Shown one piece after another: positions 10,713 through 62,945 of a stretch of 64,000 nt of DNA. The notes below the pieces were generated by a model that was given only the letters and a program-made list of their open reading frames with translations, ran no database searches and was not told the origin of the DNA. Each line of letters starts with the position of its first letter. The first letter of the stretch is position 1. The stretch comes from Bacilli bacterium (GTDB lineage Bacteria; Bacillota_I; Bacilli_A; RFN20; DUOF01): the NCBI GenBank assembly GCA_045118975.1, contig JBGVCT010000003.1:17780-81779 (forward strand), written 5' to 3'. A program made the translations under genes and the position numbers.

Positions 10713-10718
10713 TTTTAA

Positions 10719-15320: not shown

Positions 15321-15342
15321 TACAAATCACACCCTTATTTCA

Positions 15343-15371: not shown

Positions 15372-15396
15372 CATAGCAAGAGCAAATTGCTTAAAA

Positions 15397-18974: not shown

Positions 18975-18998
18975 AAGAAAAAGGAAATTAATTTCCCT
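18975..18998 (-). terminator. weak rho-independent terminator after the VirB4-like gene
   Basis: The palindrome GGAAATTAATTTCC spans the stop codon and is followed by TTTTTCTTTT on the minus strand. The stem is AT-rich. Confidence 0.4.
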
Positions 18999-21886: not shown

Positions 21887-21892
21887 AATTCA

Positions 21893-23833
21893 TTATTCCC
21901 CTTTCTTTTGATTCTCGTAGAAGTGAGCAGCCTTATTACTTGCGCTCATCAATCTCTCTCTTTGCTTATCCGCTTGTTCTTTTAATTTAAGAGCTTCTGA
22001 AGTAGACATTCTTTCTCCATTCATTTTTTGAAGTTTAGATGCTGTCTTTGCATAATCTAGTTGAGCTTTTCTATATGAATTAGAAATATTTTTAAGTTCT
22101 TCTTTTGTTTGTTTAGAAATCTCACTAGTCATTGTAGTTGTTGCTCTTTGTTCAAACTTCCTATAGTTATCAGCTAATATATCAGCTTCTTTTTTATAAG
22201 CAGCGGCATAGTCATTAAATGATTTATTCATTTGTGCACTATCATTACTGTTTATTGCAGCAGTGAAGTTATTGCTTGCACTCTTATAATCATTAATCAT
22301 GTTATTTGCAACTTTAGTAGCAGCCTTATCCATCATCTTCCATTCATTAGTAGAAGAAACATTTACATCAGGTTTTACAGATGAGTTTATATAAACAACT
22401 CCTGGACTAACTTTCTCTCCACTATAGTTGCCTTTAGCAACCCCATCTTTAACTGTTCTATTGTTAATTGTGTTAGTTGAATTAAACTTATTTGTTATAG
22501 TTACATTTTGAGTAACATGATTTGTTGTCTTATTAGCAGAATCTTTTCCACCAATATTTCCTCCACCAGAGAATGAACTTTGTCCAAGTCCTCCAGGTTG
22601 TTGAGATTCAATAAATACAGTTTCTCTTTTTGTAGTAGTTGTATTTCTAGTAACTGTTCTTGTTCTAGTTGTTGGTTGACTAGGTTTAGAAGATATTCTT
22701 GATAGTACGTTTTCAAGTAAAGCATCAGTTTTAGTTTCTTTACCTTTAAGAATATCTGCAAGCATTTTAGCACTACTTCTTGTTACACTTGCCGCAGTCA
22801 TTATGATTAATGTTCTACCAACACCATTTAATAATGAGAATGTTGAAGTTACAACCTCTTCTTCAGGAGTAGCACCAGGTTCTGGTTCAAATATGTCACC
22901 AAGCCCTGTATCTTCCTCTACTGATGGCTCTGTAGCTGCAAGTGAATCTAAATTTATATTATTTATCACATTAACCAATGCAACAAATATCATAAACGTA
23001 CCCATTTGAGTTAAGAATAATACAAATTCATAAATCAATTTACCTTGCCATTCTTTAAAACTCTTACCATCATCTAATACCATCTTTGAGATTGCCATTG
23101 GAGAAGCCACATATAATATTACAATGTTGAATAATCTTTTAACCATTTCAAACACAATAACACCCAGGTTGTACAAAACAAATGCTCCACCAAGCAATGA
23201 TATATACCAATGGTAAGCTAATGGAGTTGTTTCTACTCCTGGATCAACTGGAGCTGGATACATTAAGTCGTATAGGAATCCATTACCCAACTCTCTAAAT
23301 GAAGTATAACTAGTTCCAAATGTTTCATTGTATACCTCTATCAAGTTTCCTGAGTTGTTAAATATTGCATCCGCTATACTTATAGATGTGTTATTTCCAA
23401 ACCCGGCAATCCAAACCGCAAGATTACTTACCGCAGAAATTGCAAATAATACAATCGGTCCCATAACAGCGATGAGCAAGAAGGCAAGAGCCATATTTTT
23501 AAGCATTGGGGCCAAACTCCTGTGCTCCTCTTTTGTCATAGTCCTAAGTATTGTAACGAGACTAAATATTAAAATTAGTCCCAAGGCAAAAATTAGTAAT
23601 ATCGCGTAAGCAGTAGTTATTACATTTTGTCCAAGTATTTGATCAATTATACTGGCCTTTTCTACAACGCCATTATTAATATTGATACCAGCCACTTTAT
23701 AAAACAATTTGGTAATCTCATCAACAAGAGATAAAACTGAATAAGTCAGTTTCCAAACTATTTCATACAAAACATATAAGATACCCCTCGCGGCATTTTC
23801 ATAACCTTTACCTGCTAAAGATAAAAAATTCAT
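21893..23833 (-). CDS. VirB6/PrgH-like polytopic membrane protein with a long C-terminal tail
   Basis: At least 6 TM helices fill the first ~380 aa, followed by a T/N/S/G-rich and coiled-coil tail. The ATG at 23833 follows GGTGAT. The track TTG at 23902 is the -35 box of the operon promoter. Confidence 0.55.
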   Translation of the reverse strand: MNFLSLAGKGYENAARGILYVLYEIVWKLTYSVLSLVDEITKLFYKVAGININNGVVEKASIIDQILGQNVITTAYAILLIFALGLILIFSLVTILRTMTKEEHRSLAPMLKNMALAFLLIAVMGPIVLFAISAVSNLAVWIAGFGNNTSISIADAIFNNSGNLIEVYNETFGTSYTSFRELGNGFLYDLMYPAPVDPGVETTPLAYHWYISLLGGAFVLYNLGVIVFEMVKRLFNIVILYVASPMAISKMVLDDGKSFKEWQGKLIYEFVLFLTQMGTFMIFVALVNVINNINLDSLAATEPSVEEDTGLGDIFEPEPGATPEEEVVTSTFSLLNGVGRTLIIMTAASVTRSSAKMLADILKGKETKTDALLENVLSRISSKPSQPTTRTRTVTRNTTTTKRETVFIESQQPGGLGQSSFSGGGNIGGKDSANKTTNHVTQNVTITNKFNSTNTINNRTVKDGVAKGNYSGEKVSPGVVYINSSVKPDVNVSSTNEWKMMDKAATKVANNMINDYKSASNNFTAAINSNDSAQMNKSFNDYAAAYKKEADILADNYRKFEQRATTTMTSEISKQTKEELKNISNSYRKAQLDYAKTASKLQKMNGERMSTSEALKLKEQADKQRERLMSASNKAAHFYENQKKGE

Positions 23834-23872
23834 TAAAATCACCACGTATTTCCGGTCACTAGACCTACATAA

Positions 23873-23902
23873 ATTATAACCTAGTATTTTTTGTTTTTTC
23901 AA
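23873..23902 (-). promoter_or_regulatory. sigma-A-type promoter of the T4SS-like triad
   Basis: On the minus strand, TTGAAA is followed by 18 nt and then TATAAT. This leaves a leader of about 40 nt before the ATG at 23833. Confidence 0.45.
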
Positions 23903-36043: not shown

Positions 36044-36066
36044 GATAGTAATCGGAGGTGACTCTT

Positions 36067-36657
36067 ATGAACAAGCAGCTTAGAAATTCACGTACTCTTG
36101 AAAGTGTATACGCTATAAACCCTGTTACGTTAGAGTCATCAGGTCGTCTTATTAAGGCCCAAAGACAAACATGCGGGTTAACAACTAGCGATAAAGAGAG
36201 ACTACAATGTGAATATAATTTAACTAGATCACTTCAAAAGCATATTATGATACTTCAAGAAGGAATTATTTTAGGTGCAGGACAAGCACCTAGCAAGATT
36301 ATTTCTCCTGAAGTAGCAAAAAGATTAACAAGCCTAACAGCTTCACCTATTGCTTATAGCGAAGGAAAATTTAGTTATGTTGATGTTGACACACTAAGAA
36401 GCTTAGAAGTTTTAAACAAATCTGTTGTATTAACAAAGAATGTTGTTTTACCAATTAAAGTTAAATCTGGTGGATACAAATTAAATGCGCAAATTGTTTT
36501 GTCACAAAACAACGTATTAAGTTATGCTTCTAATGGCTTAGGATATGAAGAAAATTATGCTAAATTATATAGACCCGTAAAGATTGAAAGATTAGGAAAC
36601 GGAATTAAAAAGAACGAAATTATTGAAAAAGCAAACGCTAATAGCGCTACTAGATAA
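36067..36657 (+). CDS. hypothetical protein (196 aa), no family recognised
   Basis: The ATG lies 7 nt after GGAGGTG; the track GTG at 36058 lies inside the RBS. It is followed 12 nt later by a DUF1292 gene with an AAGGAGGGG RBS. Confidence 0.6.
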   Translation: MNKQLRNSRTLESVYAINPVTLESSGRLIKAQRQTCGLTTSDKERLQCEYNLTRSLQKHIMILQEGIILGAGQAPSKIISPEVAKRLTSLTASPIAYSEGKFSYVDVDTLRSLEVLNKSVVLTKNVVLPIKVKSGGYKLNAQIVLSQNNVLSYASNGLGYEENYAKLYRPVKIERLGNGIKKNEIIEKANANSATR

Positions 36658-36993: not shown

Positions 36994-37518
36994 CTATATT
37001 CCCAAAAATATAATAGACAAAAACACTCCTACCCCAATTCCTACAACATCTGCAATTAAACCGGCTTTAAGAGCATGTTTCCATTTTGTAACCCCTATAC
37101 TAGAAAAATATAAAGATAACACATATAAAGTTGTATCAGTACTCCCTTGAATTACACTTCCCACTTTACACACAAGTGAATCTGGGCCATACTCTGAGCA
37201 AATACTTGAAAACACACTTATCGAGGCACTCCCCGATATTGGTCTAAATAAAATAAGTGGAATTAATTCACTACTACTTTTATCAATATTAAAGATTTTA
37301 GCAATCAAATTACCAATATCACTTATTACTCCACATCCTCTTAATACCCCCACAATGGTAAGTGTAGCTAAAAGGGTTGGAAAGACTTCGCCAATTAATC
37401 CCATCCCTTCTTTTGCTCCTACTAAAAACGAATCATATACATTAACTTTTTTAACACTAGCAACAATCATGATGGTTATACACAATACAGGAATTATAAA
37501 GTAACTAATATTATTCAT
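36994..37518 (-). CDS. spmB: spore maturation protein B
   Basis: It is a 174 aa polytopic protein of the nucleoside-recognition (Gate) family, and it overlaps spmA by 4 nt. Confidence 0.8.
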   Translation of the reverse strand: MNNISYFIIPVLCITIMIVASVKKVNVYDSFLVGAKEGMGLIGEVFPTLLATLTIVGVLRGCGVISDIGNLIAKIFNIDKSSSELIPLILFRPISGSASISVFSSICSEYGPDSLVCKVGSVIQGSTDTTLYVLSLYFSSIGVTKWKHALKAGLIADVVGIGVGVFLSIIFLGI

Positions 37519-38090
37519 ACTTTATTCCTTCTATATAAATAATCCACAAACAATCCTGCTAAACAAGAACAGAAAGTAGCAATTATTGGCAAGAATATCA
37601 TATCGCTTGGATTGTTACTCCCTAAGGCTGATCTAATTGAAATAACTGTAGTAGGTATTATTGTAACTCCTGCAGTATTTAACACTAAAAAAGTAACCAT
37701 TTCATAAGTTGCTTCCTTTTTATCACCCTTATTTAATTCCTGCATCCTCTTTATTGCTTTTAGTCCACTAGGAGTGGCCCCATAACCAAGACCTAACATA
37801 TTGGAAACAATATTAGTAGACATATATTCAAGTGCTTCTTTATCCTTAAACTTAGGCATTATAAGATTAAAAAGCGGAGAAATCTTTTTAGACATCCACG
37901 ATATAAACCCCGCCTCAGTTAAAATGTTCATCATCCCATTCCAAAAACAAGCACTACTAACAAGCGTAATAAGCAAACTAACACTTTCTTTAGGAATATT
38001 TAATATAGCATTAGATACATTAACAACCCTTCCACTTAACACTCCATACATACAAGAAATAAAAAAGATACAAAGCCATATCTTGTTCAT
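37515..38090 (-). CDS. spmA: spore maturation protein A
   Basis: It is collinear with B. subtilis SpmA as I recall it (NMLGLGYGATPSGLKAIKRMQELN...FLVLNTAGVTIIPTTVISIR). Confidence 0.85.
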   Translation of the reverse strand: MNKIWLCIFFISCMYGVLSGRVVNVSNAILNIPKESVSLLITLVSSACFWNGMMNILTEAGFISWMSKKISPLFNLIMPKFKDKEALEYMSTNIVSNMLGLGYGATPSGLKAIKRMQELNKGDKKEATYEMVTFLVLNTAGVTIIPTTVISIRSALGSNNPSDMIFLPIIATFCSCLAGLFVDYLYRRNKV

Positions 38091-38131
38091 TGAATCACCT
38101 AAAACAATATATGAGATTGTATCTTTATTTA

Positions 38132-40729
38132 TTATTTTTTATTATTATTTTTCTTTTTTGAAAACGACTTTTCAATCCTATCAAAATGTGAATCTAAATA
38201 TCCTAAATATCTATAACATTCTTTTTTTACTTCCCCAATAGAGGAAATTCCTAACTCTATTAAAATATCTTCACCTATAGTCCCTTTTAAATATAAACCT
38301 TCTAAAACATTTATATTTTTTTCCCATTCTTTATTTCTGGAAGGATTTAGTTGATTTTTCATTACAATTAAATACCTTTTTTTATCATCCTCATTTGCAT
38401 TATTCATTAACAATGACAGTTCTTCTACACTATACTTTCTTATACCATTTTCATCTATCTTATATTCATAGGTCAAAGACTTATATTTCTTTTTAAAACT
38501 ATCAAGACCTATTAAATCAATATAATCCTTATCAATGATTTTGATAAAGAAGTCATCTAAATTCATGCTTTTTTTGTCTTTGTCGACCCTTTTAATGCTA
38601 TGACTATACTTTAATGAACTTTCAATTTTTTCAAGTTGTGCCATCTTTTCGTCAAGAGACTTATTTGGATTATCCAAACCAAACAATGCATCTGTTAAAA
38701 GTTTAGCTTTAAACTCTGTATCAAATTCAAAACTCACCCAATCATAATTACTCTTATAATAATCTTCTCCTAAAATATCTCTCAATATTTCATCTTTTGC
38801 ATAATAATTAATATCCGGATCATCATCAAAATTAGCTTCTTCAATATTCTTGAACTGTATAGCGTGATTTATCTCATGATGTAAAGTTTTAATCATATCA
38901 TAAACACTTCTATCATGCCCATTATATAAACTAACTCTTTTATGTTCTCTATTTTCGCAACCATAAGTATCTTTATCTTTACTATAGTCAAACACTTCAA
39001 CAGAATAATCACCAACACCATTTTTATTCAATACTTTAAGTGCATACATTTTAATAGCTAACATTTCTTCAAGTGTTAACTCACTTCTTTTTTTGTGTTG
39101 AAGAGAAACTATAACATCTTCTAATGACTCTTCTTTTTTCATGATTTTAAGAAGATACTGCTCATCTTTTTGTTCATACAAATATCTTTTAAAAGTTGTC
39201 TTTTCAAGCAAAACTCTAGTGTGATGATTAACATTCAACTTATCCAGTATATCTTGTCTAGTAAGATAATTACTAGATAACATGCTCATAGCTAAAGTGC
39301 CATCTTTAAAAGCGTCTAAAATTAAGTCTATGTCTCCTTCTTTAAACTCATTACTATATCTATTTCTTGGGATATCCAAAATTAAATTTCTAAGCCTAAA
39401 GTAGGTATCTTCAAAGAAGTTACTTTTATCAAGTTCATTCTTTTTTAATAAAATATTTTTCAATATTTCCATTGCATAATGAGAAGGGATATCCAAAAAA
39501 GTCTCTTCATCATATCTAACTCCAAGCATAATTGCAGCCATATTTACATCTATTTCGCTAAGAACTCTAAGCGCCCTATAATCAGCATACATAACAAAAG
39601 AATCCACATTTAAAATATCATGATTTAAAATAACCTCTTTATATCTAGCATATTCTTCATCGCTTATTTCATGACTTGTAAACTGCTCGATATACTCCAT
39701 ATCTCCTCGATCAAAAGCTTCTTTTAAGACTCTAGCTGTTCCATCAAAATCATTGCTTAAAGATGCTAAAACAAAATTAAAATTAATATTAGCAACTCTA
39801 GGATAATTACTCAATTTAAAATTGGTATCTTTTAAAAGTTCATATAATCTCTTTGAATCATTATCAGATAATAAAACCCTTATATAAGAACCCTCTATAT
39901 TGTTTAAAAAATTCTTATATGCATGTTTATTTTCTAAACACGAAAAAAATAACTCTGGTTCTATATTAAATACCCCAAGCATTTCTATTATCTTCTTTTT
40001 TTCTTCCTCACTATGAGGGTTAGTAAAAATTTCTTCTAATCTAATTAAACACTCTATATATAATTCATCATTATCTTTAATAGCTTTTAAAATTTGATAT
40101 GCCCTAACATATAAAGTCTCTATCGCATCCTTTTCTAAAGACACTTTGATTAAATCATGATATGCACATGCAACTTCAATGCTATTTATATCAATAACAA
40201 AATTATGCCTTTTTAATATCTCTCTAAACTCTTCCCTGTCTTCACTAGAAATAGGAATATTTAAATGTTGTTTTAGAAAATCTAAAGTATCTTCATAATT
40301 GTTATTTAATGATACATTTATTAACCAAGGATTTTGATGTGCAAAATAAGCCATGTTATTATTTATAACAAATCCTTTATTCTTTAATATAGACTTTATA
40401 TTATTATTTACACTTAGCTTACAGCCATGTTTAATTAAACAAGAAAGTGTATATTCATAATTGTAAGATAAACTTTTTTCTAAGAGTTCTTCATTACAGG
40501 CAAAAGCGCTATAATTATAATCATTAATCCTAACACTATCTTTACTTAACAAATAGTCACTAACTTCTCTAGGATATTTTTTAGACACCCACTCCATGTA
40601 ACTTTTGTTATTTACAACCCTTGAAGGAGTAGAACTATCTAGAATATATTGCTCTCTTTTTAGAATTTCTATTTCTTCTTTTGAAAGTGGTGTATCACTA
40701 TTATTTTTTAAAACATCTTCTAATTTCAT
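38132..40729 (-). CDS. large repeat protein with a C-terminal HExxH zincin-like module (paralogue B, 865 aa)
   Basis: The ATG at 40729 lies 5 nt after AGGTGG, which overlaps the TAG stop of the upstream paralogue. There are about 6 degenerate ~55-67-aa repeats, and HEINH lies at 38864-38878. No signal peptide or TM helix is present. Confidence 0.75.
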   Translation of the reverse strand: MKLEDVLKNNSDTPLSKEEIEILKREQYILDSSTPSRVVNNKSYMEWVSKKYPREVSDYLLSKDSVRINDYNYSAFACNEELLEKSLSYNYEYTLSCLIKHGCKLSVNNNIKSILKNKGFVINNNMAYFAHQNPWLINVSLNNNYEDTLDFLKQHLNIPISSEDREEFREILKRHNFVIDINSIEVACAYHDLIKVSLEKDAIETLYVRAYQILKAIKDNDELYIECLIRLEEIFTNPHSEEEKKKIIEMLGVFNIEPELFFSCLENKHAYKNFLNNIEGSYIRVLLSDNDSKRLYELLKDTNFKLSNYPRVANINFNFVLASLSNDFDGTARVLKEAFDRGDMEYIEQFTSHEISDEEYARYKEVILNHDILNVDSFVMYADYRALRVLSEIDVNMAAIMLGVRYDEETFLDIPSHYAMEILKNILLKKNELDKSNFFEDTYFRLRNLILDIPRNRYSNEFKEGDIDLILDAFKDGTLAMSMLSSNYLTRQDILDKLNVNHHTRVLLEKTTFKRYLYEQKDEQYLLKIMKKEESLEDVIVSLQHKKRSELTLEEMLAIKMYALKVLNKNGVGDYSVEVFDYSKDKDTYGCENREHKRVSLYNGHDRSVYDMIKTLHHEINHAIQFKNIEEANFDDDPDINYYAKDEILRDILGEDYYKSNYDWVSFEFDTEFKAKLLTDALFGLDNPNKSLDEKMAQLEKIESSLKYSHSIKRVDKDKKSMNLDDFFIKIIDKDYIDLIGLDSFKKKYKSLTYEYKIDENGIRKYSVEELSLLMNNANEDDKKRYLIVMKNQLNPSRNKEWEKNINVLEGLYLKGTIGEDILIELGISSIGEVKKECYRYLGYLDSHFDRIEKSFSKKKNNNKK

Positions 40730-40738
40730 AACAACCAC

Positions 40739-43700
40739 CTACGAAATCTTTCTTTTAAATTCTTCAGTAGAAATTCTTTTATCGCTTTCAATAATTTTTT
40801 CAGCAATACCTAAATATTTGCTAACAAAAACCTCATTTTCCTTAACAAACATCCTATATTCATCATTCAACTCATCCAAAATTTCTTCTAAAAGACCATT
40901 TAATTCCTCATCACCTTTAATAGTTTCCATAAATAAATCTATATCTTCCATATAACTAGAATTATAAAGCGGATCTAATCTACATCTAAATATAGATTTA
41001 TAAACCTCTTTATCCAATTCATTTGCTTGCTTATATGAAGACACTAATTCTTTTACATCATATTTTTTTACTGGTGATGAACTTATATCGTATTCATATT
41101 TAATTATCGGATATTGTTTCATTAATTCCTCAATATCTATAATCCCAGTACGCACACAAATATTTAAGCAATATTCAAACAGGTCATCCAAAAGATAATC
41201 TTGACCATCAAAAGATCTGTGAGCAGTTAATGAATACTTATTACGCTCTGCCCCAAATCTAGTTAGACTCTCCCTATCAACTAAGGTAGAGACATCTTCC
41301 CCTTTATGTAAAAGTTCTCCCTCTAATCTTAAAACTTTTAAAGCTTCCATTTGAGATTTAAGCTCCGTATCATATTCAAAACTTATAGCCCAATAATTTT
41401 CCATATAATAATCAAAATGGCAATAATTTCTAAGCACTGTCCTAATTATCTCATCTTTTGTATATAATATAATATCTGGATCGCTTGTAATATCTAAAGT
41501 AGTTATATCTATCTTTTGCTTTGCATGATTATTTTCATGAATAATAGTTTCTACCATACCATGTATCGATTCATCATGACCATTATAAAGCCTTAATTTA
41601 GATCCTCCATATGCCCCTAAATTTGTCTTAGAAGGTCCATAAACATAGGTGTCTACTTTACAATTTTCAATTCCTTTTTTATATTGATCTTTTTTAGCAA
41701 AAAACGCTAGGGCCAACATTTGAGTAAGGGATAAATCTTTTTTAGTCTTAGATATACTTTGTAAATATGCAAGTTCATCTTCAATGCTATCAAATTTACT
41801 ACCCAAACATTTTAGTAATCTTATTTCATCTTCTTTAGAGTAAACATAAGATTGATTAAAATATATCTTTTCATATAATTCTTCAACCTCTTTGCTCTCT
41901 AAATATGGTGCTATTTGTTCAAGGCTCTCAAAAGGAATATAAGCAAGTGGCGCCCCATGATCTATAAGAAATTTCATATACTTTTCTGTTTGACCATTCT
42001 TTTTTTTCTTTTCATCACCAAAAATTCCCCATGCTATAATAGAGACAAACTTTGGATATTTGCTTAAGTCTACTTTTCTAGTCTCACTTATACTTATAAG
42101 TTTTTCCATTACCTTTTCACTACTTGCTTTGTCCATCATAGCAAGTGGCCTATCATTTCTTTCTACCTCTTCCATTAACTTATCAAAATTTTTCTCTAAC
42201 CTTCTTACCATTAAAGAAGGAGTTCTTGAAAGTAACCTATAAAATAGTTCCTCATCTTGCCCGCTATTCCACAATATAGAAACAATTTTACTAGCTTGTT
42301 CATCATTTATCTCTACATCATTTATAGGTAACTTAGAATTCATTAAAAAGCTTCTTGTACCATAATAATCATTTTCTAAAGCCGCAATTAAGAATAAAGG
42401 ACTTAGAAATAGTAACCCACCTGTTTCCTTAGTAAATGTAAAATTATTAGATCTTAAAATATTATATATGGCCGCCATTGCCTCAGGATTATTTATTCTT
42501 AATTGAGTATTTCTATCTCCCTTTGCCATATTTGCAATAGTTCTATCATAATTTTGATGTAAAGCTTGAACTAAAATGTCGTTATCTTGAGAAATAAATT
42601 CTCTAATTGTAGAATTAAATTTTATATCGTTTTGAGTAATTCCCTCTACCATTAATTTTCTAACAGTAGATGGAAACATAGTAACCTTCTCTTTTACAAA
42701 ATCCTCAAGGACAAACAACTCATGAATACCATGTTTCATTGTCTTTACAAAATCATTTTTTAAAGACACCTCAAACATTAAATCCACTAAATATGGATTA
42801 TTATCTTTATAACCAGCAACATAACCTTTATTTTTTAGTTCATCTTTTATAAAAGCAGATGTAATAGACTCAAACTTACTCACATCACATGAAGCAAGAA
42901 GTTTTAATCCCTCCACATAATTATCTTTTAATATTTCTCTAATAACTGAAGGTCTTTTATTAACCAAACTTGTAAGTGCTTTTCTTGCATCATATGATGG
43001 ATGTAATCTATCCACATTTTCTACAAGAATTTTCTTAATTATTTCCTTATTATTGTCTATATCTAAATAATCCCAAATATGTTCTCCTGATGTTAAGGTA
43101 GCAAAAGGATCATTTCTAAATGATTTTCTTATTATTCTAGTCATTACATCATTGCTAACTAAACTCTTAAAAGACATATATAAATCAGAGTCTATAACAA
43201 AACCTGGTTTAGATGTTAAAATTTCTTCTACATCTAAATTCAATAAATATTCTCTAAATTCTCTTGTATGTCTCCCTTTAGCTAAAGTAACAACTGTGGT
43301 ATATGGGTCATTTTCCATAGATATATCAGCTATGCCGGGACTTAAATGCAATAAATTCAAAGTAGATACACTTAAAACAAAATTATTGCTTTGTAAAATA
43401 GGCTTAATTGTCCTATATAAATCGTAAGCTCTGCTATTAGTAAGTCCAGATTGAGACATATCTGATAAAACAGATAGAGTTTGAGCATAATCATTTTTTA
43501 ATGAAAGCTCAGCAACTTCTGGCCATATCTTCACAAGTCTAGCGCTATTTGTATCAATAACAAAATTAGGGCCCAAAACCTCTATTATATCTCTTGGAGA
43601 AATTCCATATAAATATATTCTGCACTCTTCTATCTTTCTAAAAGTATATTCAGGATCGTTTCTTAAAGATACTGCAATTAAATATGGTTGAGCTACAACT

Positions 43701-44341
43701 AAATCAACATTATCCTCATCTATTAGAAAATCGTGATTATTATCAATATATTCATTAATTATTTCTTTTGTTAAAATCCCTTTCAATGAAGAACTATATC
43801 TTTTTAAATACTCAAGCGTTGCTTCTTTGTTATTTTTAAATGACCTAACAAGCTTAACTCTAGCCATATCGTCCCCATCAAATATATTATCCATATTTGA
43901 CCCATCAACACCCAATACAAAAGTTTCATCTTGTTTTATATTATCTTCCAATATTTTATATACTTGAGGATTTAAAAAATCTATCCAAGTGTCCTTAAGC
44001 GCATCAATAACCTCATCATATCTATACTCTAATAACTTACCCTTTATAGAGGGACAAAGCAAGTATGCCTCTACGTTGGTATTATTAATTATAATTGTAT
44101 TTGGATCCACAATCGATTCGATAATATCTCCAACTCCAGGTATAGTTCCATATTTAGATACAAAAGTCGCAAAAAAAGCAGCACCTGACTCATATGCATA
44201 TCTAACAATCTCTGGATATTGTAAAATCACATTTTGAATTTCCTCAATACCTGGCTCTGTTAAAACATATGATCTTAAAAAGCGTTCTTTCTTTTCGTTA
44301 TCTAAATTCTCCAAGATGTTAACCATATCTATATTAGCCAT
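40739..44341 (-). CDS. large repeat protein with a C-terminal HExxH zincin-like module (paralogue A, 1200 aa)
   Basis: It has RBS GGAAGGTG, about 10 degenerate ~60-aa repeats (NF[VT][IL]...P.L[IV]..SL.ND[YPF]..T), and HENNH at 41525-41539. No signal peptide or TM helix is present. Confidence 0.75.
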   Translation of the reverse strand: MANIDMVNILENLDNEKKERFLRSYVLTEPGIEEIQNVILQYPEIVRYAYESGAAFFATFVSKYGTIPGVGDIIESIVDPNTIIINNTNVEAYLLCPSIKGKLLEYRYDEVIDALKDTWIDFLNPQVYKILEDNIKQDETFVLGVDGSNMDNIFDGDDMARVKLVRSFKNNKEATLEYLKRYSSSLKGILTKEIINEYIDNNHDFLIDEDNVDLVVAQPYLIAVSLRNDPEYTFRKIEECRIYLYGISPRDIIEVLGPNFVIDTNSARLVKIWPEVAELSLKNDYAQTLSVLSDMSQSGLTNSRAYDLYRTIKPILQSNNFVLSVSTLNLLHLSPGIADISMENDPYTTVVTLAKGRHTREFREYLLNLDVEEILTSKPGFVIDSDLYMSFKSLVSNDVMTRIIRKSFRNDPFATLTSGEHIWDYLDIDNNKEIIKKILVENVDRLHPSYDARKALTSLVNKRPSVIREILKDNYVEGLKLLASCDVSKFESITSAFIKDELKNKGYVAGYKDNNPYLVDLMFEVSLKNDFVKTMKHGIHELFVLEDFVKEKVTMFPSTVRKLMVEGITQNDIKFNSTIREFISQDNDILVQALHQNYDRTIANMAKGDRNTQLRINNPEAMAAIYNILRSNNFTFTKETGGLLFLSPLFLIAALENDYYGTRSFLMNSKLPINDVEINDEQASKIVSILWNSGQDEELFYRLLSRTPSLMVRRLEKNFDKLMEEVERNDRPLAMMDKASSEKVMEKLISISETRKVDLSKYPKFVSIIAWGIFGDEKKKKNGQTEKYMKFLIDHGAPLAYIPFESLEQIAPYLESKEVEELYEKIYFNQSYVYSKEDEIRLLKCLGSKFDSIEDELAYLQSISKTKKDLSLTQMLALAFFAKKDQYKKGIENCKVDTYVYGPSKTNLGAYGGSKLRLYNGHDESIHGMVETIIHENNHAKQKIDITTLDITSDPDIILYTKDEIIRTVLRNYCHFDYYMENYWAISFEYDTELKSQMEALKVLRLEGELLHKGEDVSTLVDRESLTRFGAERNKYSLTAHRSFDGQDYLLDDLFEYCLNICVRTGIIDIEELMKQYPIIKYEYDISSSPVKKYDVKELVSSYKQANELDKEVYKSIFRCRLDPLYNSSYMEDIDLFMETIKGDEELNGLLEEILDELNDEYRMFVKENEVFVSKYLGIAEKIIESDKRISTEEFKRKIS

Positions 44342-44362: not shown

Positions 44363-44371
44363 ATTATAACA
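44363..44371 (-). promoter_or_regulatory. extended -10 promoter element upstream of giant paralogue A
   Basis: On the minus strand, TGTTATAAT lies 21 nt upstream of the ATG and downstream of the TPR-gene terminator. Confidence 0.4.
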
Positions 44372-44411: not shown

Positions 44412-44442
44412 CAAAATAAAAATAGAGATTTTACTCTCTATT
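44412..44442 (-). terminator. rho-independent terminator of the TPR gene
   Basis: Hairpin AATAGAGA-gtaaaa-TCTCTATT followed by TTTTATTTT. The stop codon lies in the loop. Confidence 0.6.
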
Positions 44443-45324
44443 TATAAATTCTTTAACTATTGAATTATAGTCAATAGGTATGCCCTCTTTTATAGCCACA
44501 TCAATAAATTCTTCTTCATTAAATTCTAAATCTCTATCTAAAGGTTTAATCTCTTTTAATTCCTCATATAATTCTTTTACTGGATTCAAACTATAACTCT
44601 TTTGATACATTAAAAACTCATAGTCTTTATTAATAAATTTATAACAATAATTACCTACAAAATAATAAAAATCCCCTAAATCTTCTTGTCTATGTATATA
44701 TTTGTGAACTTTTAATAGCTCTTCTTTTGCTTCTTCAAATTTCTTATTTACCTTAAGTAGCAAAGCCTTAAAAAAATACGCTTCCTTTAGGAATGGATTG
44801 TATGTTTTAGCCAAATCAAACGACAATAAAGCTTCATTAGTTTTATTTTCTTCAAGTAAAATTCTACCATACATAAAATAAGCAAAACCTTTATTAAGAT
44901 CTGTATATATAATCTCTCTATCATCATCATTAATTAGATTATATAACTCTCTTTCCTCTTCGTTATCAATATATACAATATTAGCAAACTCATCATTCAA
45001 ATAACTATTAGAAAAAGATTTAATCATTGATTCCAATAATTCTTTTACTTCTTTTATTTTTCCCTTTTCAAAATATTCATTTCCAAGAGCAATTCCATAA
45101 TTAATGCTCTCATTATACTTAGCTAGCATTTCTAAATAGGCCTCTTTTTGAGGCTTATCTAGATATAATTTTTCCTTTATTAAAATCTTATCTAACAGAT
45201 TCTTATATCTTGGATGACTCTTGTATTTTTCCTTTTTTATATCAAGAATCTCTAAATTACTTTGATAGTCATTACTCAAATCTCCAAAAACATCATCAAG
45301 CAATTCTTTTATTTCCTTTTCCAT
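44431..45324 (-). CDS. TPR-like helical repeat protein
   Basis: The 297 aa product has TPR-like A/Y/F periodicity (EALLSFDLAKTYNPFLKEAYFFKALLLKVNKKFEEAKEELLK). Confidence 0.5.
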   Translation of the reverse strand: MEKEIKELLDDVFGDLSNDYQSNLEILDIKKEKYKSHPRYKNLLDKILIKEKLYLDKPQKEAYLEMLAKYNESINYGIALGNEYFEKGKIKEVKELLESMIKSFSNSYLNDEFANIVYIDNEEERELYNLINDDDREIIYTDLNKGFAYFMYGRILLEENKTNEALLSFDLAKTYNPFLKEAYFFKALLLKVNKKFEEAKEELLKVHKYIHRQEDLGDFYYFVGNYCYKFINKDYEFLMYQKSYSLNPVKELYEELKEIKPLDRDLEFNEEEFIDVAIKEGIPIDYNSIVKEFINRE

Positions 45325-55751: not shown

Positions 55752-56600
55752 TTATAATAACTCCATTATTCTCTTTAATGTATTTTCATCCTTAAATGAA
55801 ATTCTAATTTCATTATCTTTAATTTTAACTTTAGTCTTAAACTTCTTGTGTAAAGCACTAGTTACATATTCATAATATGGATTGAAATCTTTTTGTTCTG
55901 GCTTTTTAGCTCTGTTAATTTCTCTACCATGTGCTAAATTTGCTAATGCCTCAATTTGTCTAGAAGTATATCCAAGTTCGATTGCATCATTTGCAATTTT
56001 AATGGCATCGCTTTCACTTAAATTAATAAGTGGCTTAACTTGACCCATAGTCAATACACCATTAATTACATAATCTTGAATAACTTGTGGTAAATTCAAT
56101 AGTCTCATGATATTAGCAATATATGATCTAGATTTACCTACTCTTTGTCCAATTTGTTCTTGAGTAAGACCTAATTTGCTACACAAACTATCATATGCCT
56201 TTGCTTCTTCAATAACATTTAATTCTTCTCTTTGAATGTTTTCAATGATAGATAACTCCATCATTTGCTTATCATCAAATTCTGCTACAATTGCAGGAAC
56301 TTTAGTTAAACCAGCAATTTTACTAGCTCTAAATCTTCTTTCTCCAGCCAAGATTTGATATCTTCCATCACTTGTTTTTCTAAGTAAAATTGGAGAAATA
56401 ACACCATAAGTCTTAATTGATGTTGCTAATTCTTGTAATTTAACTTCATCAAATATTTTTCTTGGTTGATATGGGTTAGTATCAATTAACTTAGTAGAAA
56501 CTTCTTGTCTAGATTCACTAGTAGCATATTCCTTTAATTTTTCAATTTCTTTTAATTCTTCACTTATTTCAAATACATTAATCTTGCTCTGACTTTGCAT
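55752..56600 (-). CDS. parB: chromosome partitioning protein ParB/Spo0J
   Basis: It has the ParB box LAGERRFRA, the N-terminal motif NPYQPRK, and an HTH (LTQEQIGQRVGKSRSYIAN). Confidence 0.95.
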   Translation of the reverse strand: MQSQSKINVFEISEELKEIEKLKEYATSESRQEVSTKLIDTNPYQPRKIFDEVKLQELATSIKTYGVISPILLRKTSDGRYQILAGERRFRASKIAGLTKVPAIVAEFDDKQMMELSIIENIQREELNVIEEAKAYDSLCSKLGLTQEQIGQRVGKSRSYIANIMRLLNLPQVIQDYVINGVLTMGQVKPLINLSESDAIKIANDAIELGYTSRQIEALANLAHGREINRAKKPEQKDFNPYYEYVTSALHKKFKTKVKIKDNEIRISFKDENTLKRIMELL

Positions 56601-57360
56601 TACCTATTACCTCCCTAGCGAAACTCATATAAGCATCAAAAACAGGTGTACCTGGAGCGTACTCCACAATTGTCTTCCCATGTTTTTGTGATTCAATAAT
56701 TTTGTTACTTCGTGGTAAAGTTGTTCTATAAACTCTACTGTTAACAAACATCTCTCTTATTTCTTTTTCTATTTCTTTGTTTATATTAAACTTTGGATCA
56801 TACATGTTAAGTACGATACCACTTACATATAATTTTTTGTTAAAAGAATTCTTAATTCTTCTAACCGCAGCATACGCTTCTATTAAACTTTCTTTTGAAA
56901 AATAATGACATACAGAAGGAATAATTACATCATCACTTGCATTCAATACATTAACATTTAATCCCATTCCTGGAGGACAATCTATAACTATATAATCATA
57001 CTTTCTTCTAGTATTTTTTAGGATTTCCTTTAGTCTAGAATATCTGTTTTTCTCATACAAAGTAGCAAGCTCAACATCCGCACCAGCAAGAAGAGGCGAT
57101 GAAGGAATAAAATCTAACTTTTTCACTCCTGTTTTTCTAATAATTGTAGAAATATCAGCTTTATCAACTAAAGCCTCGTATAAACTAGATCCTACATTAT
57201 ATCTATCAAATCCCAAACCCATTGTGGCATCACAAATAGGATCGGTATCTATTAACAATGTTTTTTTTCCAAGATAAGCTAAAGACGCAGCTAAATTAAT
57301 AGCAACAGTTGTTTTTCCAACTCCGCCTTTTTGATTTACAATTGCAACAACTTCCGCCAT
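56578..57360 (-). CDS. parA: chromosome partitioning ATPase ParA/Soj
   Basis: It has the deviant Walker A NQKGGVGKTT. Confidence 0.95.
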   Translation of the reverse strand: MAEVVAIVNQKGGVGKTTVAINLAASLAYLGKKTLLIDTDPICDATMGLGFDRYNVGSSLYEALVDKADISTIIRKTGVKKLDFIPSSPLLAGADVELATLYEKNRYSRLKEILKNTRRKYDYIVIDCPPGMGLNVNVLNASDDVIIPSVCHYFSKESLIEAYAAVRRIKNSFNKKLYVSGIVLNMYDPKFNINKEIEKEIREMFVNSRVYRTTLPRSNKIIESQKHGKTIVEYAPGTPVFDAYMSFAREVIGNAKSEQD

Positions 57361-57374
57361 TGTATATACCTCCC

Positions 57375-58079
57375 TTACAGTGGTTTTTTCTTCATTTTAT
57401 TATAATCTCTAGGATACTTATGTGGAGTATAATCTAATTTAGTATAAATAAGGTTGTATCTTTTACCAAAACTCTTTGGTAATATAATCTTTTGTTTTTG
57501 AGTTAAATCTAGCTTAAGTTCTCTACAAGCAGCATCACACTCTGCAGCTTCTTCCTTAGCTAAAGGTCCTTTTAAAGCGATGAATTTTCCACCAACTTTT
57601 ACCATTGGAGAACTTAATTCCATTAACACATTTAATCTAGATACTGCTCTAGCTGTAACATAGTCATATTCTTCTCTATGTTCTCTTCCATAATCTTCAG
57701 CTCTAGCAACAACAACATCAATGCCTTCTAATCCTAACTCCTCGATAACTAATTTTACAAAATCCATTCTCTTATTCATTGAATCTAGAGCGATTACATG
57801 TAAATCTGGGAAAGCAATTTTTAATGGGATAGATGGGAATCCCGCACCAGTTCCTACATCACACAATGTTTTACCATTTAAGTCATTTTCAAATGATAAT
57901 GTTAAGCAATCATAAAAGTGTTTCTCATAAACATCCTCTTTTTGAATAATTGTTGTTAGATTTAATCTTTCATTCCAAATTTGAAGTAATTCAAAATATC
58001 TTCTAAATTGTTTTTCTTGTTTCTCAGTTAATATAATATCGTGTTCTGCTAATAAATCTTTAAATTGTTGTTCATTCAT
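57375..58079 (-). CDS. rsmG: 16S rRNA (guanine527-N7)-methyltransferase
   Basis: It belongs to the GidB family and has the SAM motif DVGTGAGFP. Confidence 0.93.
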   Translation of the reverse strand: MNEQQFKDLLAEHDIILTEKQEKQFRRYFELLQIWNERLNLTTIIQKEDVYEKHFYDCLTLSFENDLNGKTLCDVGTGAGFPSIPLKIAFPDLHVIALDSMNKRMDFVKLVIEELGLEGIDVVVARAEDYGREHREEYDYVTARAVSRLNVLMELSSPMVKVGGKFIALKGPLAKEEAAECDAACRELKLDLTQKQKIILPKSFGKRYNLIYTKLDYTPHKYPRDYNKMKKKPL

Positions 58080-59940
58080 CGTTTTTTACCCCTTTCATTT
58101 TTAAATACATTAACAATATTGATATATCACTTGGATTTACACCAGATATTCTAGATGCTTGCCCTATATTCAAAGGCTTAACTTTATTTAACTTTTGCCT
58201 TGCTTCTAGAGCTAAATTATCTATTTGGTCATAATCTATATTTTTATCCAAAGTTAAGTTTTCTAGTTTTTTGCTATTCAAAGCCGCTTTTTCCTCTTTG
58301 GATATATATCCAGCAAATTTTATTTGTATTTCTACTTCTTCTAAAATTTCATCATCATAATCTAATTTATCACTAAATTGTTGAATATCCTTGTATGAAA
58401 TGTTTGGCCTTTTTAGTAATTCATAGTATGACAAGCTATTTTCTATACTTTCATTTTTTTCGTTCTTTAACCACTCGCAAAATTCACTATTCTTTTTAAA
58501 TTTGTACTCTTTCAATAATTCCTTGAGCGATTCAATAGTTTTAACTTTCTCTACAAATTTTTCATATCTTTCCTCACCAAGTAATCCAACATCATATCCA
58601 TGTTTACAAAGCCTAAGATCTGCATTGTCGTGTCTCAATATCAAACGATACTCAGCTCTGGAAGTTAACATTCTATAAGGTTCTTTTGTTCCCTTGGTAA
58701 CTAAATCATCTATCATAACTCCAATATAAGCTTCATCTCTTTGCAAAATAAGTGGATCTTTTTCTTTTAACTTCAAGCAAGCATTTATACCAGCCATAAG
58801 TCCTTGAGCTGCCGCCTCTTCATATCCACTTGTTCCATTTATTTGTCCCGCTGTGAATAGATTCTTTATAACTTTACTTTCTAGACTTGGCCACATAGTA
58901 AGTGGATCTATTGCGTCATATTCGATAGCATAAGCGAATATCTTCACCCTAGCGTTTTCAAATCCTGGCAAAGAGTGAATCATTTCAAGTTGTACATCCT
59001 CAGGCATTGAAGTTGAAAACCCTTGCAGGTAAATTGTATCTAATTCTTCTGACTCAGGCTCAACAAATAATTGGTGTCTCTCTTTATCAGAGAATCTAAC
59101 AATTTTATCTTCTATAGATGGACAATACCTAGGACCAATTCCCTCAACTACCCCACCATACATAGCAGACTTTTCTAGATTTGCCATAATAATTTCTTTA
59201 GTTTTATCGGTCGTATGAATCAAATAACACAATCTTTGTTCTTCTAGTGGTTTAAATTCTTTTGTAGTATATGAGAATGATAAATTTCCTTCACTTCCTG
59301 GTTGAATTTCCATATTAGAATAATCCACACTATCAGCATAAATTCTAGCAGGAGTTCCTGTTTTCAATCTTTGGATAGGAATACCCAATTCTTCCAGGTT
59401 TTTTGATAACCCCTTAGCTGATGGTTCATTGTCTGGCCCCTCAATTACAGATTTATGACCTCTTAATGTTCTGGATTCTAAATATGTTCCTGTTGTTAAT
59501 ATGACAGATTTAGATTCTATTTCTTTTCCATCATTTAACACTACACCTTTACACTCTTGATTCTCGCATATAAGTTTAACAACCATTCCTTCAATTACAT
59601 CTAAGTTAGGTTGATTGTATAATGTTTGTTGCATCGTTCTTTTATATAGCAATTTATCACTTTGTGCTCTAAGGCACCTAACGCCAGGCCCCTTTGCAGT
59701 ATTCAACATTTTCATTTGTAAATACGTTTGATCAGCGTTAATTCCCATTTGTCCACCAAGCGCATCAATTTCTCTAACAATTACTCCTTTTGCAGGACCA
59801 CCTATCGATGGATTACAAGGCATGGAAGCAATATTGTTCTTGGTTAAAGTAATTAGTAATGTGGACATACCAATTCTAGCAGATGCCAAAGCAGCTTCAA
59901 CACCAGCATGGCCGCCACCCACTACGATTACATCGTACAT
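58072..59940 (-). CDS. mnmG: tRNA uridine 5-carboxymethylaminomethyl modification enzyme
   Basis: It has the FAD motif YDVIVVGGGHAGVEAA and is 622 aa long. Confidence 0.97.
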   Translation of the reverse strand: MYDVIVVGGGHAGVEAALASARIGMSTLLITLTKNNIASMPCNPSIGGPAKGVIVREIDALGGQMGINADQTYLQMKMLNTAKGPGVRCLRAQSDKLLYKRTMQQTLYNQPNLDVIEGMVVKLICENQECKGVVLNDGKEIESKSVILTTGTYLESRTLRGHKSVIEGPDNEPSAKGLSKNLEELGIPIQRLKTGTPARIYADSVDYSNMEIQPGSEGNLSFSYTTKEFKPLEEQRLCYLIHTTDKTKEIIMANLEKSAMYGGVVEGIGPRYCPSIEDKIVRFSDKERHQLFVEPESEELDTIYLQGFSTSMPEDVQLEMIHSLPGFENARVKIFAYAIEYDAIDPLTMWPSLESKVIKNLFTAGQINGTSGYEEAAAQGLMAGINACLKLKEKDPLILQRDEAYIGVMIDDLVTKGTKEPYRMLTSRAEYRLILRHDNADLRLCKHGYDVGLLGEERYEKFVEKVKTIESLKELLKEYKFKKNSEFCEWLKNEKNESIENSLSYYELLKRPNISYKDIQQFSDKLDYDDEILEEVEIQIKFAGYISKEEKAALNSKKLENLTLDKNIDYDQIDNLALEARQKLNKVKPLNIGQASRISGVNPSDISILLMYLKMKGVKNDE

Positions 59941-62943: not shown

Positions 62944-62945
62944 TA

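What the first reader, a model, noticed from the sequence alone, without database searches (positions are those of the whole stretch)
38132..44341. Two translationally coupled giant paralogues (1200 aa and 865 aa) built from ~60-aa degenerate repeats
**Seen in sequence**
- Gene A is 40739-44341 and gene B is 38132-40729. The TAG stop of A is embedded in the AGGTGG RBS of B.
- Neither protein has a signal peptide or a TM helix.
- A contains about 10 repeats and B about 6, with a period of 55-67 aa.
- The repeat core is NF[VT][IL]-x(12-16)-P.L[IV]..[SA]L.ND[YPF]..T...L.
- Examples in A are NNFVLSVSTLNLLHLSPGIADISMENDPYTTVVTL, GPNFVIDTNSARLVKIWPEVAELSLKNDYAQTLSVL and SNNFTFTKETGGLLFLSPLFLIAALENDYYGTRSFL.
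- Examples in B are KGFVINNNMAYFAHQNPWLINVSLNNNYEDTLDFL and TNFKLSNYPRVANINFNFVLASLSNDFDGTARVL.
- The ND-type anchors in A fall at residues 170, 228, 283, 344, 410, 473, 529, 596, 657 and 717.
- The last ~330 residues of both proteins are clearly homologous.

**Inference**
- I do not recognise this repeat as a named family.
- Together the two genes take up 6.2 kb, about 10% of the window.
- The architecture, a helical-repeat scaffold followed by a putative catalytic module, resembles effectors, toxins or large regulatory proteases.
Basis: seen in the sequence. Interest (0 to 1): 0.75.

Follow-up and report, generated by a model that had tools for sequence, protein, structure and literature searches.

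The report
Paired solenoid-repeat zinc-protease-like proteins
Two adjacent large genes encode members of a rare, unnamed protein family of uncultured gut Bacilli in which a helical arm built from a new repeat carries a predicted zinc protease domain; the genes and the repeat are real, but what the proteins do in the cell is still unknown.

Summary
Both ORFs exist on the minus strand: A at 40739-44341 (1200 aa) and B at 38132-40729 (865 aa). A's TAG stop lies inside B's AGGTGG ribosome-binding site. Neither protein has a signal peptide or a membrane helix. The C-terminal ~320 residues are homologous (33.6% identity, E 6e-36).

The repeat is real. A has 8 copies well above shuffled controls plus 2 degenerate ones. 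B has 4 plus 1 borderline copy.

Both are invariant in all 56 aligned family members, which is a gluzincin-type signature. AlphaFold models are confident (pLDDT 83-86). They show an all-alpha solenoid followed by a three-strand sheet, the HExxH helix and a Glu-bearing helix.

No Pfam, NCBIfam, PDB, PADLOC, plasmid or phage match reaches significance. The family is rare: 75 clusters among 1.84 billion representatives, all from low-GC sequences.

A and B are old tandem duplicates. The pair and its neighbourhood are conserved in a sheep-gut Bacilli MAG. A and B diverge much faster (50% and 62% identity) than their neighbours (78-96%).

Relatives sit repeatedly inside the dacB-spmA-spmB locus, yet each has its own sigma-A-type promoter. 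The toxin or effector reading is not supported.

The parts
40739..44341 (-). Gene A, 1200 aa: alpha-solenoid arm plus C-terminal zincin-like module
   Evidence: The ORF is listed. A 99% identical protein occurs in two Logan assemblies and a 50% identical full-length orthologue in L003. dN/dS is 0.107 against the 98.9% identical strain. The whole-protein AF2 model has pLDDT 83.3.
38132..40729 (-). Gene B, 865 aa: the same architecture with a shorter arm
   Evidence: The ORF is listed. The orthologue in L003 is 61-62% identical. The HEINH motif is at residues 618-622.
40727..40741 (-). A/B junction: TAG stop of A inside the AGGTGG ribosome-binding site of B, 5 nt before B's ATG (translational coupling inferred)
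   Evidence: Read directly from the sequence. The same layout is present in L003.
42158..43942 (-). Repeat array of A (residues 134-728): 8 HMM-significant units plus 2 degenerate ones. The 42-aa core consensus is ENILIDNNFVLDKNNPSLLKYNPLLLLASLKNDYEKTIKYLK.
   Evidence: In the AF2 model each unit is a long helix followed by three short helices.
39722..40549 (-). Repeat array of B (residues 61-336): 4 significant units
40784..41929 (-). C-terminal family module of A (residues 805-1186), containing the zincin-like core
   Evidence: The family HMM matches at E 2e-111. The AF2 model has pLDDT 86.2 and pTM 0.83.
41525..41539 (-). HENNH (A residues 935-939): predicted zinc-binding and catalytic motif
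   Evidence: HExxH is present in every family member that covers this region. H935, E936 and H939 are invariant in 56 sequences.
41375..41377 (-). Glu989 of A: predicted third zinc ligand, in the motif SFEYDTE
   Evidence: Invariant in 56 sequences. It lies on helix 987-1003 of the model.
38153..39283 (-). C-terminal family module of B (residues 483-859), with HEINH at 38864-38878 and Glu668 at 38726-38728
44363..44371 (-). TGTTATAAT, an extended -10 (sigma-A-type) promoter element about 20 nt upstream of A's ATG
   Evidence: The element is conserved upstream of the orthologues in L003 and L006. TGnTATAAT-like or TATAAT-type -10 elements lie upstream of most family members in other contexts. 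Function is inferred.
44413..44440 (-). Weak hairpin (AGAGA...TCTCT) plus T-run at the end of the TPR-like gene: a possible terminator separating it from A
   Evidence: Read from the sequence and conserved in L003. It was not called by the G+C-rich terminator scan.
39943..39949 (-). T7 tract in B (codons ~261-263), the site of a 1-nt deletion in closely related strains
44431..45324 (-). 297-aa TPR-like protein, a conserved upstream neighbour at the spm-type loci
   Evidence: Only weak TPR hits. It is 80% identical in L003 and 65% in L006, at the same position. A 298-aa ORF with no Pfam hit sits at the same position in L010, but its homology was not checked.
36994..38090 (-). spmA (37515-38090) and spmB (36994-37518) homologues, 41 nt downstream of B with no terminator between
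   Evidence: Gate domain hits. The first terminator-like site on this strand lies after spmB, at 36925-36905.

Best explanation
**What they are.** A and B are intact, anciently duplicated tandem paralogues. They belong to an undescribed family restricted to a group of low-GC, uncultured Bacilli.

**Architecture.** Each protein is cytoplasmic and has two parts.
- The first part is an N-terminal all-alpha solenoid arm. It is built from a new repeat with a 42-aa conserved core and a 56-70-aa period, roughly four helices per unit.
- The second part is a ~380-aa C-terminal module. Its core has the order and ligands of a gluzincin-type zinc metallopeptidase: a small beta-sheet, a helix carrying HExxH, and a later helix carrying an invariant Glu.

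**Most likely mechanism (inferred).** The fast-evolving, variable-length solenoid arm binds a protein partner or substrate. The conserved zincin site then cleaves it inside the cell.

**Expression (inferred).** The pair is transcribed from its own sigma-A-type extended -10 promoter. B is translationally coupled to A. With no terminator after B, transcription probably reads through into spmA-spmB.

**Physiological role.** The target is unknown. The repeated placement of family members inside the dacB-spmA-spmB spore-maturation locus makes a role connected with spore maturation the leading guess. That step is weak.
For: **Shown**
- The ORFs, the junction and the lack of export signals.
- HExxH is present in every relative covering the site.
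- Only H935, E936, H939, E989 and R1042 are invariant across 56 sequences. Q942, Y960, D963, Y978/979, N982, Y983 and D991 are near-invariant.
- The AF2 model of A 801-1200 has pLDDT 86.2. It shows strands at 95-120, then the HExxH helix at 126-148, then the helix 187-203 that bears the Glu.
- The best fold agreement for the core is a 128-aa phage SprT-like zincin (TM 0.70 normalised to the target). Weaker IrrE-like and 'zinc metallopeptidase' hits follow. All have non-significant E-values.
- Sub-threshold Pfam hits fall only on metallopeptidase families: DUF6782 in 13 of 56 members, plus Zn_peptidase_2, SprT-like, M48 and DUF2268.
- Whole A is all-alpha up to about residue 870. It matches HEAT/ARM solenoids generically, at E ~1e-5 and TM ~0.15.
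- The repeats score far above shuffles and recur in about 50 relatives.
- Purifying selection acts on both genes: dN/dS is 0.11 for A and 0.13-0.29 for B.
- The catalytic segment is the best conserved part (64% in A, 75% in B). The arm is the least conserved, at 38-44% in A.
- The pair and the full gene order are conserved in L003.
- A conserved TGnTATAAT element lies upstream. No terminator lies between B and spmA.

**Locus association**
- Family members lie between the TPR-like gene and spmA, and/or between spmA and spmB, in four lineages: the window, L003, L006 and L010.
- dacB, spmA and spmB belong to the gene set shared by all spore-formers (PMC3533761).
Against: - No sequence or structure match to any characterised peptidase reaches significance. 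Pfam scores stay below the gathering cut-off. The PDB sequence search is empty. Foldseek against PDB on the C-terminal module gives nothing below E 0.1.
- Zinc binding and proteolysis are untested.
- The promoter upstream of every member looks sigma-A-type rather than sigma-E, -K, -F or -G. This weakens a sporulation-specific role.
- Many members lie at unrelated loci: Dfx-RNase J, PFOR, and a tandem array in L014.
- Whether the host sporulates was not tested.
Confidence: 0.55

Rival explanations
1. The family is a conflict or defence-type cassette. It would be a self-contained gene with its own promoter, in which the variable solenoid senses a foreign (for example phage) protein and the zincin acts as the effector. 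In some members a small coupled protein would act as inhibitor or immunity partner. The position in the spm locus would then be an insertion hotspot.
For: - A and B diverge far faster (50% and 62% identity) than their neighbours (78-96%).
- Copy number at the locus varies from 1 to 3. Four family members lie within about 9 kb in L014, interspersed with unrelated genes.
- Each copy carries its own TGnTATAAT-type or TATAAT-like -10 element.
- A conserved 45-67-aa partner is translationally coupled to a subset of members.
- One-nucleotide deletions in a T-tract occur at the homologous site in two lineages.
Against: - No PADLOC or PHROG match was found.
- No copies occur on plasmids, phages or IMG/VR contigs.
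- The neighbours are housekeeping or sporulation genes, not defence islands.
- The genomic position is conserved across lineages.
- There is no NTPase or P-loop switch domain.
- The small partner is absent from the window.
- Short-term dN/dS is about 0.1.
Confidence: 0.2
2. The proteins are non-catalytic structural or scaffold proteins, for example a spore coat or cortex assembly component, that merely retain a zincin-derived fold.
For: - Both proteins are large and solenoid-rich, lack export signals, and sit in the spm locus.
- No peptidase family match is significant.
Against: The metal ligands and the catalytic Glu are the only residues invariant in all 56 members, together with one Arg. 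Pseudo-enzymes normally lose such residues. The catalytic segment is the most conserved part of both proteins.
Confidence: 0.08
3. The proteins are secreted or injected toxins or effectors with a helical delivery or targeting domain.
For: The layout is a large repeat arm plus a C-terminal HExxH module. A mycoplasma-type ICE lies 15 kb away in the window.
Against: - There is no signal peptide, TM helix or recognisable trafficking domain.
- No secretion genes are adjacent.
- The locus is syntenic in relatives and lies outside the ICE.
- No immunity-like small gene follows A or B.
Confidence: 0.05

Closest known systems
Minimal zincins of the SprT-like and IrrE/ImmA-like kind
   Same: The core has a small beta-sheet followed by an HExxH helix. 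The best structural agreement for the core is a 128-aa phage SprT-like protein (TM 0.70 normalised to the target), followed by IrrE N-terminal-like proteins. One or two members give weak SprT-like Pfam hits.
   Different: The E-values are not significant (0.17 or worse). From general knowledge, SprT uses a third His. Here the only invariant candidate ligand is a Glu 50 residues after the second His. The core is embedded in about 250 extra helical residues and preceded by a solenoid.
Pfam PF20573, DUF6782 (putative metallopeptidase family)
   Same: There is local similarity around the HExxH helix, covering profile positions ~59-116 of 241. It appears in B and in 13 of 56 relatives.
   Different: The best score is 19.7 bits against a gathering score of 27. 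Only a quarter of the profile is matched. A itself gives no hit. No literature on DUF6782 was found.
Gluzincin peptidases fused to helical-repeat domains, for example BepA (M48 plus TPR)
   Same: The design logic is shared: an HExxH...E zincin joined to an alpha-helical repeat platform for protein recognition. BepA (6sar) appears among the non-significant fold hits at E 1.9.
   Different: From general knowledge, BepA is periplasmic and has the protease N-terminal to the TPR domain. No sequence or significant structural similarity was found here, and the repeat is of a different type.
HEAT/ARM alpha-solenoids (CAND1, transportins, huntingtin)
   Same: All are all-alpha superhelical repeat arms. 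Foldseek gives E ~1e-5 for whole A.
   Different: TM is only about 0.15. No Pfam repeat family matches at E<=1. The unit is about 57-63 aa with roughly four helices. From general knowledge, HEAT units are ~40 aa with two helices and ARM units ~42 aa with three.

Membership tests
Zincin / gluzincin metallopeptidases (MEROPS clan MA type) | HExxH motif on an alpha-helix | tested here: met
   HENNH in A and HEINH in B. The motif is invariant in all relatives covering the site and lies in helix 926-948 of the model.
Zincin / gluzincin metallopeptidases (MEROPS clan MA type) | Third zinc ligand Glu on a downstream helix | tested here: inconclusive
   E989 is invariant and lies on helix 987-1003. 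Its spatial proximity to the two His residues could not be checked because no coordinates were available.
Zincin / gluzincin metallopeptidases (MEROPS clan MA type) | Beta-sheet immediately N-terminal to the active-site helix | tested here: met
   Three strands at C-terminal-model residues 95-101, 109-112 and 115-120 precede the HExxH helix.
Zincin / gluzincin metallopeptidases (MEROPS clan MA type) | Significant sequence or fold similarity to a characterised member | tested here: not met
   All Pfam hits are below the gathering score. The PDB sequence search gave 0 hits. Foldseek against PDB gave nothing below E 0.1. Against BFVD the SprT-like hit has TM 0.70 but E 0.17.
Zincin / gluzincin metallopeptidases (MEROPS clan MA type) | Zinc binding and peptide-bond hydrolysis | not testable with these tools
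   This needs biochemistry.
Pfam DUF6782 (PF20573) | Score at or above the gathering cut-off (27 bits) | tested here: not met
   The best scores are 17.9-19.7 bits for B, and none for A. Only weak hits appear in 13 of 56 relatives.
Named helical repeats (TPR, HEAT, ARM, Sel1, PPR and others) | Profile match to the repeat family | tested here: not met
   Pfam and NCBIfam list no family for A at the E<=1 reporting limit, although HMMER's filters drop most matches above E~0.1. No repeat family recurs in the 56 relatives at E<=0.1.
Named helical repeats (TPR, HEAT, ARM, Sel1, PPR and others) | All-alpha solenoid fold | tested here: met
   The AF2 model is all-helical through about residue 870. Foldseek hits are HEAT/ARM proteins at E ~1e-5, though TM is only ~0.15.
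Polymorphic toxins / secreted effectors | Signal peptide or N-terminal trafficking domain, and an adjacent immunity gene | tested here: not met
   No hydrophobic N-terminus or TM helix and no known domain. No small partner ORF occurs in the window.
Known anti-phage defence systems (PADLOC-DB 2.0) | Match to a defence protein model | tested here: not met
   0 families for A, B and the TPR-like neighbour.
dacB-spmA-spmB sporulation operon (as an accessory member) | Co-directional with spmAB, no intervening terminator, and the position conserved across lineages | tested here: met
   for the window. for four lineages.
dacB-spmA-spmB sporulation operon (as an accessory member) | Sporulation-sigma (E, K, F or G) promoter, or sporulation-specific expression | tested here: inconclusive
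   The conserved element upstream of A is a TGnTATAAT sigma-A-type extended -10. This was judged by eye only, and no expression data exist.

The most novel reading that the evidence does not exclude
A lineage-specific family of solenoid-armed zinc proteases has become part of the spore-maturation operon (dacB-spmA-spmB). It would act on the still-unknown SpmA/SpmB pathway or on cortex or coat proteins. Gene B would additionally be switched or split by slippage at a conserved T-tract. The split would yield a repeat-only fragment and a 'standard-size' protease of ~560 aa.
Probability: 0.15. Interest if true: 0.65.

Novelty: new variant of a known kind. Interest (0 to 1): 0.42.

Why it matters
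- **New family and repeat.** If the prediction holds, this defines a new zinc-peptidase family and a new alpha-solenoid repeat. Neither is represented in Pfam, NCBIfam or the PDB. Both come from a poorly known group of gut Bacilli.
- **Possible link to SpmA/SpmB.** The family is recurrently embedded in the dacB-spmA-spmB locus. The biochemical function of SpmA and SpmB is still unknown (PMC3533761), so the family offers a possible handle on that pathway.
- **Specificity evolution.** The fast-diverging arm joined to a conserved catalytic core would be a useful case of how substrate recognition evolves.
- **If not confirmed.** Otherwise it remains a well-delimited 'domain of unknown function' worth depositing as a family.

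Tried and rejected
- **Word-indexed homology searches.** These returned almost nothing: only the self cluster, a fragment, and two or three relatives. The exhaustive phmmer search was needed to find the family.
- **Genome-collection scans.** The scan with the 25-sequence alignment failed for lack of a conserved stretch. With a closer alignment it found one locus. The JGI metagenome scan added only one fragment and two distant repeat-less relatives of 450 aa. Pfam did not recognise the one that was scanned (L018).
- **PDB.** The sequence searches were empty. Foldseek on the C-terminal module gave no hit below E 0.1.
- **Defence and phage libraries.** PADLOC and PHROGs gave nothing meaningful.
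- **Mobile-element collections.** Plasmid, phage and IMG/VR searches had no match.
- **RNA families.** Rfam found no RNA family in the window.
- **Sporulation promoters.** I looked by eye for sigma-E, -K or -G-type promoters upstream of A and found a sigma-A-type extended -10 instead. A conserved CATATATT just before the spmA/spmB ribosome-binding sites sits too close to the RBS to be read confidently as a -10 element.
- **Small partner.** I searched the window for the small partner protein seen with other members. It is absent.
- **NTPase motif.** No P-loop is present in A or B.
- **Other copies.** No further family copies occur in the window.
- **Literature.** A search for DUF6782 returned no papers.

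Full report
**1. The observation**

The two ORFs are present as described: A at 40739-44341 and B at 38132-40729 (or from a GTG at 40738), both on the minus strand. The junction reads tcgTAGGTGGttgttATG. A's stop codon is therefore part of an AGGTGG Shine-Dalgarno sequence 5 nt upstream of B's ATG.

Neither protein has a hydrophobic stretch that could be a signal peptide or TM helix. The maximum 19-residue Kyte-Doolittle mean is 1.37.

BLASTP aligns A 822-1137 with B 507-809 at 33.6% identity, E 6e-36. It also gives staggered hits between the N-terminal regions, which is the signature of an internal repeat.

**2. The repeat**

I built a profile from the motif across all relatives and iterated it. 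It converges on a 42-residue core: ENILIDNNFVLDKNNPSLLKYNPLLLLASLKNDYEKTIKYLK.

- A has 8 copies scoring 18.7-49.6 bits, at residues 134-667.
- B has 4 copies scoring 23-49.6 bits, plus one at 10 bits.
- In 400 shuffles of A and B, the best score was 10.2 bits and none reached 15.

The units anchored at A 473 and A 717 are below the profile's reach but keep the half-motif. 'About 10' for A is therefore fair, and 'about 6' for B is a little high.

The same repeat occurs in about 50 other proteins, mostly in 1-3 copies. It is a genuine family domain rather than a compositional artefact. No Pfam or NCBIfam model matches it.

**3. The C-terminal module**

The reason is an HExxH motif: HENNH at A 935-939 and HEINH at B 618-622. 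It is present in every relative that covers the site.

In an alignment of 56 full-length relatives, the only invariant residues are H935, E936, H939, E989 and R1042. Q942, Y960, D963, Y978, Y979, N982, Y983 and D991 are nearly invariant. Two His, a catalytic Glu and a downstream Glu form the ligand set of gluzincin-type zinc peptidases (established knowledge of MEROPS clan MA).

An AlphaFold2 model of A 801-1200, built with a 25-sequence alignment, is confident (pLDDT 86.2, pTM 0.83). It shows the expected order: three beta-strands, the HExxH helix, then a helix bearing E989.

Even so, no characterised family is matched significantly.
- Pfam gives only sub-threshold hits, all to metallopeptidase families: DUF6782 in 13 of 56 members, with single hits to Zn_peptidase_2, SprT-like, M48 and DUF2268.
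- PDB sequence searches are empty.
- Foldseek against the PDB finds nothing below E 0.1.
- Against BFVD, the best local agreement is a 128-aa phage SprT-like zincin (TM 0.70 normalised to the target, E 0.17). Weaker IrrE-like proteins follow.

I read this as a minimal zincin core buried in a family-specific helical elaboration. The metal-site geometry could not be checked because coordinates are not exposed.

**4. The whole protein**

A model of all 1200 residues (pLDDT 83.3) is helical from the N-terminus to about residue 870. Repeating groups consist of a long helix followed by three short ones. Foldseek matches are HEAT/ARM solenoids such as CAND1, huntingtin and transportins, at E ~1e-5 but TM ~0.15. 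This is generic solenoid likeness and nothing more specific.

**5. The family and its distribution**

An exhaustive phmmer search of 1.84 billion cluster representatives finds 75 proteins at E<=1e-3.
- One is a full-length orthologue of A (1198 aa, 50% identity).
- Two are proteins of about B's length (863 and 859 aa). The first, P0016, groups with B.
- The majority are 500-650 aa and align to A 570-1160.

Clusters are tiny, with 1-8 members. Where a name exists, it is 'hypothetical protein [Bacilli bacterium]'.

Pattern-based scans found few additional loci. They locate only sequences that match the search patterns, so they are not a census.
- Representative genomes of 185,579 species yielded one locus, a sheep-rectum Bacilli MAG, L003.
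- JGI metagenomes yielded three loci.
- IMG/VR, plasmids and phages yielded none.

All fetched loci have 25-30% G+C.

**6. Genomic context**

L003 is fully syntenic with the window. Its gene order is ThiF-like, TtcA-like, lipid kinase, the TPR-like 297-aa protein, A', B', spmA and spmB. On the opposite strand lie queH, queA and tgt. The stop-in-RBS junction is also kept.

Neighbouring proteins are 78-96% identical between the two genomes, whereas A is 50% and B is 62%. Within A, the arm is 38-44% identical and the catalytic segment 64%. In B, the catalytic segment is 75%.

Against a 98.9% identical strain (L001), dN/dS is 0.11 for A and 0.13-0.29 for B. For neighbours it is 0-0.085. Both genes are under purifying selection but are less constrained than their neighbours.

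A neighbour-joining tree puts the A clade (A, A', P0005) as sister to the B clade (B, B', P0008). The duplication therefore predates the split from L003.

Other lineages show different arrangements.
- L006 has three paralogues: one before spmA and two between spmA and spmB.
- L010 has one, between spmA and spmB.
- A second recurrent locus is desulfoferrodoxin-[member]-RNase J, seen in L004, L008, L009 and L012, with a Hydrolase_2 gene directly downstream of RNase J in L012. In L005, RNase J is again followed by Hydrolase_2, but the family member P0040 lies several genes upstream.
- L014 has four copies within about 9 kb, interspersed with unrelated genes.
- L007 and L013 are unrelated contexts.

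Homologues are neither always paired nor always next to spmAB. The spm-locus association is nevertheless recurrent, appearing in four lineages.

dacB, spmA and spmB belong to the gene set found in all spore-formers (PMC3533761). The hosts are therefore probably spore-formers. I did not test this directly.

**7. Expression signals**

Upstream of A there is a weak hairpin with a T-run at the end of the TPR-like gene. It is followed by TGTTATAAT about 20 nt before the ATG. Both are conserved in L003, and the extended -10 is also present in L006. A TATAAT-like -10 element, often with the TGn extension, precedes most family members examined in other contexts.

This looks like a sigma-A-type promoter and not a sporulation-sigma promoter. 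Nothing terminator-like lies between B and spmA, which are 41 nt apart. The first terminator-like site on this strand is after spmB. A, B, spmA and spmB are thus probably co-transcribed, but not necessarily only during sporulation.

**8. Interpretation**

The molecular reading is reasonably well supported. These are intracellular zinc-peptidase-like proteins in which a diversifying solenoid arm would supply recognition and a conserved zincin site would supply catalysis.

The physiological reading is open. Two options remain.
- **Spore maturation.** Locus association favours this.
- **Conflict-type cassette.** Fast divergence, copy-number change, each gene's own promoter and the small partner seen in some members favour this.

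I rank spore maturation slightly higher because the position is conserved in core chromosomal context. There is also no association with defence genes or mobile elements.

The toxin or effector idea lacks any secretion evidence. A purely structural role is disfavoured, because the catalytic residues are the most conserved in the family.

**9. Novelty and score**

This is a new family within a known kind: a zincin peptidase joined to a helical-repeat platform. The repeat is not in current libraries. It is a solid, well-delimited unknown, but not categorically new, and the functional link to sporulation is only circumstantial. Interest is 0.42.

Noticed in passing
window 39943-39949 (T7 tract in gene B); L001/L002; L003 versus L016: Two Logan assemblies that are 98.9% identical to the window carry T6 instead of T7 here. 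This splits B into ORFs of 264 and 560 aa. In the lineage whose B is 62% identical, the homologous tract is T6 in L003 and T5 in the ENA contig L016 (coverage 3.3x), again splitting the gene into 274 and 589 aa. This may be recurrent slippage (phase variation) or a homopolymer assembly error. The six A7 tracts of B show no such variants. The C-terminal fragment has the size and layout of a typical family member.
   Followed up: partly
L005 3612-3749; L006 14932-15078; L010 8811-8990; L013 1731-1913 and 2883-3062; L014 6989-7156 and 12694-12897: A conserved 45-67-aa helical protein with the motif EEFxYY...YLxxLxxAxxLLExIE is encoded next to a subset of family members, in most cases abutting or overlapping the member gene. 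It could be an inhibitor, adaptor or chaperone partner. It is absent from the window and from the A/B-type loci.
   Followed up: partly
L006 (ENA ERZ27302875 k141_2759752) 5509-15688: Three family paralogues of 582, 755 and 713 aa, all with HExxH, are interleaved with the sporulation genes. The order is dacB-79aa-TPR-like-[582]-spmA-[755]-[713]-48aa-spmB. The normally adjacent spmA-spmB pair is therefore split by two large insertions.
   Followed up: partly
window 18988-23902 (minus strand): Mycoplasma-type integrative conjugative element genes are present. One is an 867-aa Mbov_0397-family VirB4-like ATPase (E 8e-180, above the NCBIfam cut-off). The other is a 669-aa MMCAP2_0566 / Mbov_0396-family protein. 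This points to an ICE of the Mollicutes type in this Bacilli genome.
   Followed up: no
window 38095-38110; L003 and L006 spmA/spmB upstream regions: A conserved CATATATT lies 4-5 nt upstream of the ribosome-binding site of spmA. It is seen in the window, L003 and L006, and also upstream of the separated spmB in L006. It resembles a sigma-E or sigma-K -10 box but sits unusually close to the RBS. Its meaning is unclear.
   Followed up: no
window 55752-59940 and 61289-63905: parB, parA, rsmG (gidB) and mnmG (gidA) are present, together with rsmI-like, PSP1 and holB-like genes. The window therefore lies close to the chromosomal replication origin region. Nearly all genes are on the minus strand and GC skew is steadily negative.
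   Followed up: no
window 36058-36657 (plus strand): A 199-aa ORF with no family match is convergent with spmB. It is only 62.5% identical to its L003 counterpart, while flanking genes are 81-96% identical. It is another fast-evolving unknown at this locus.
   Followed up: no
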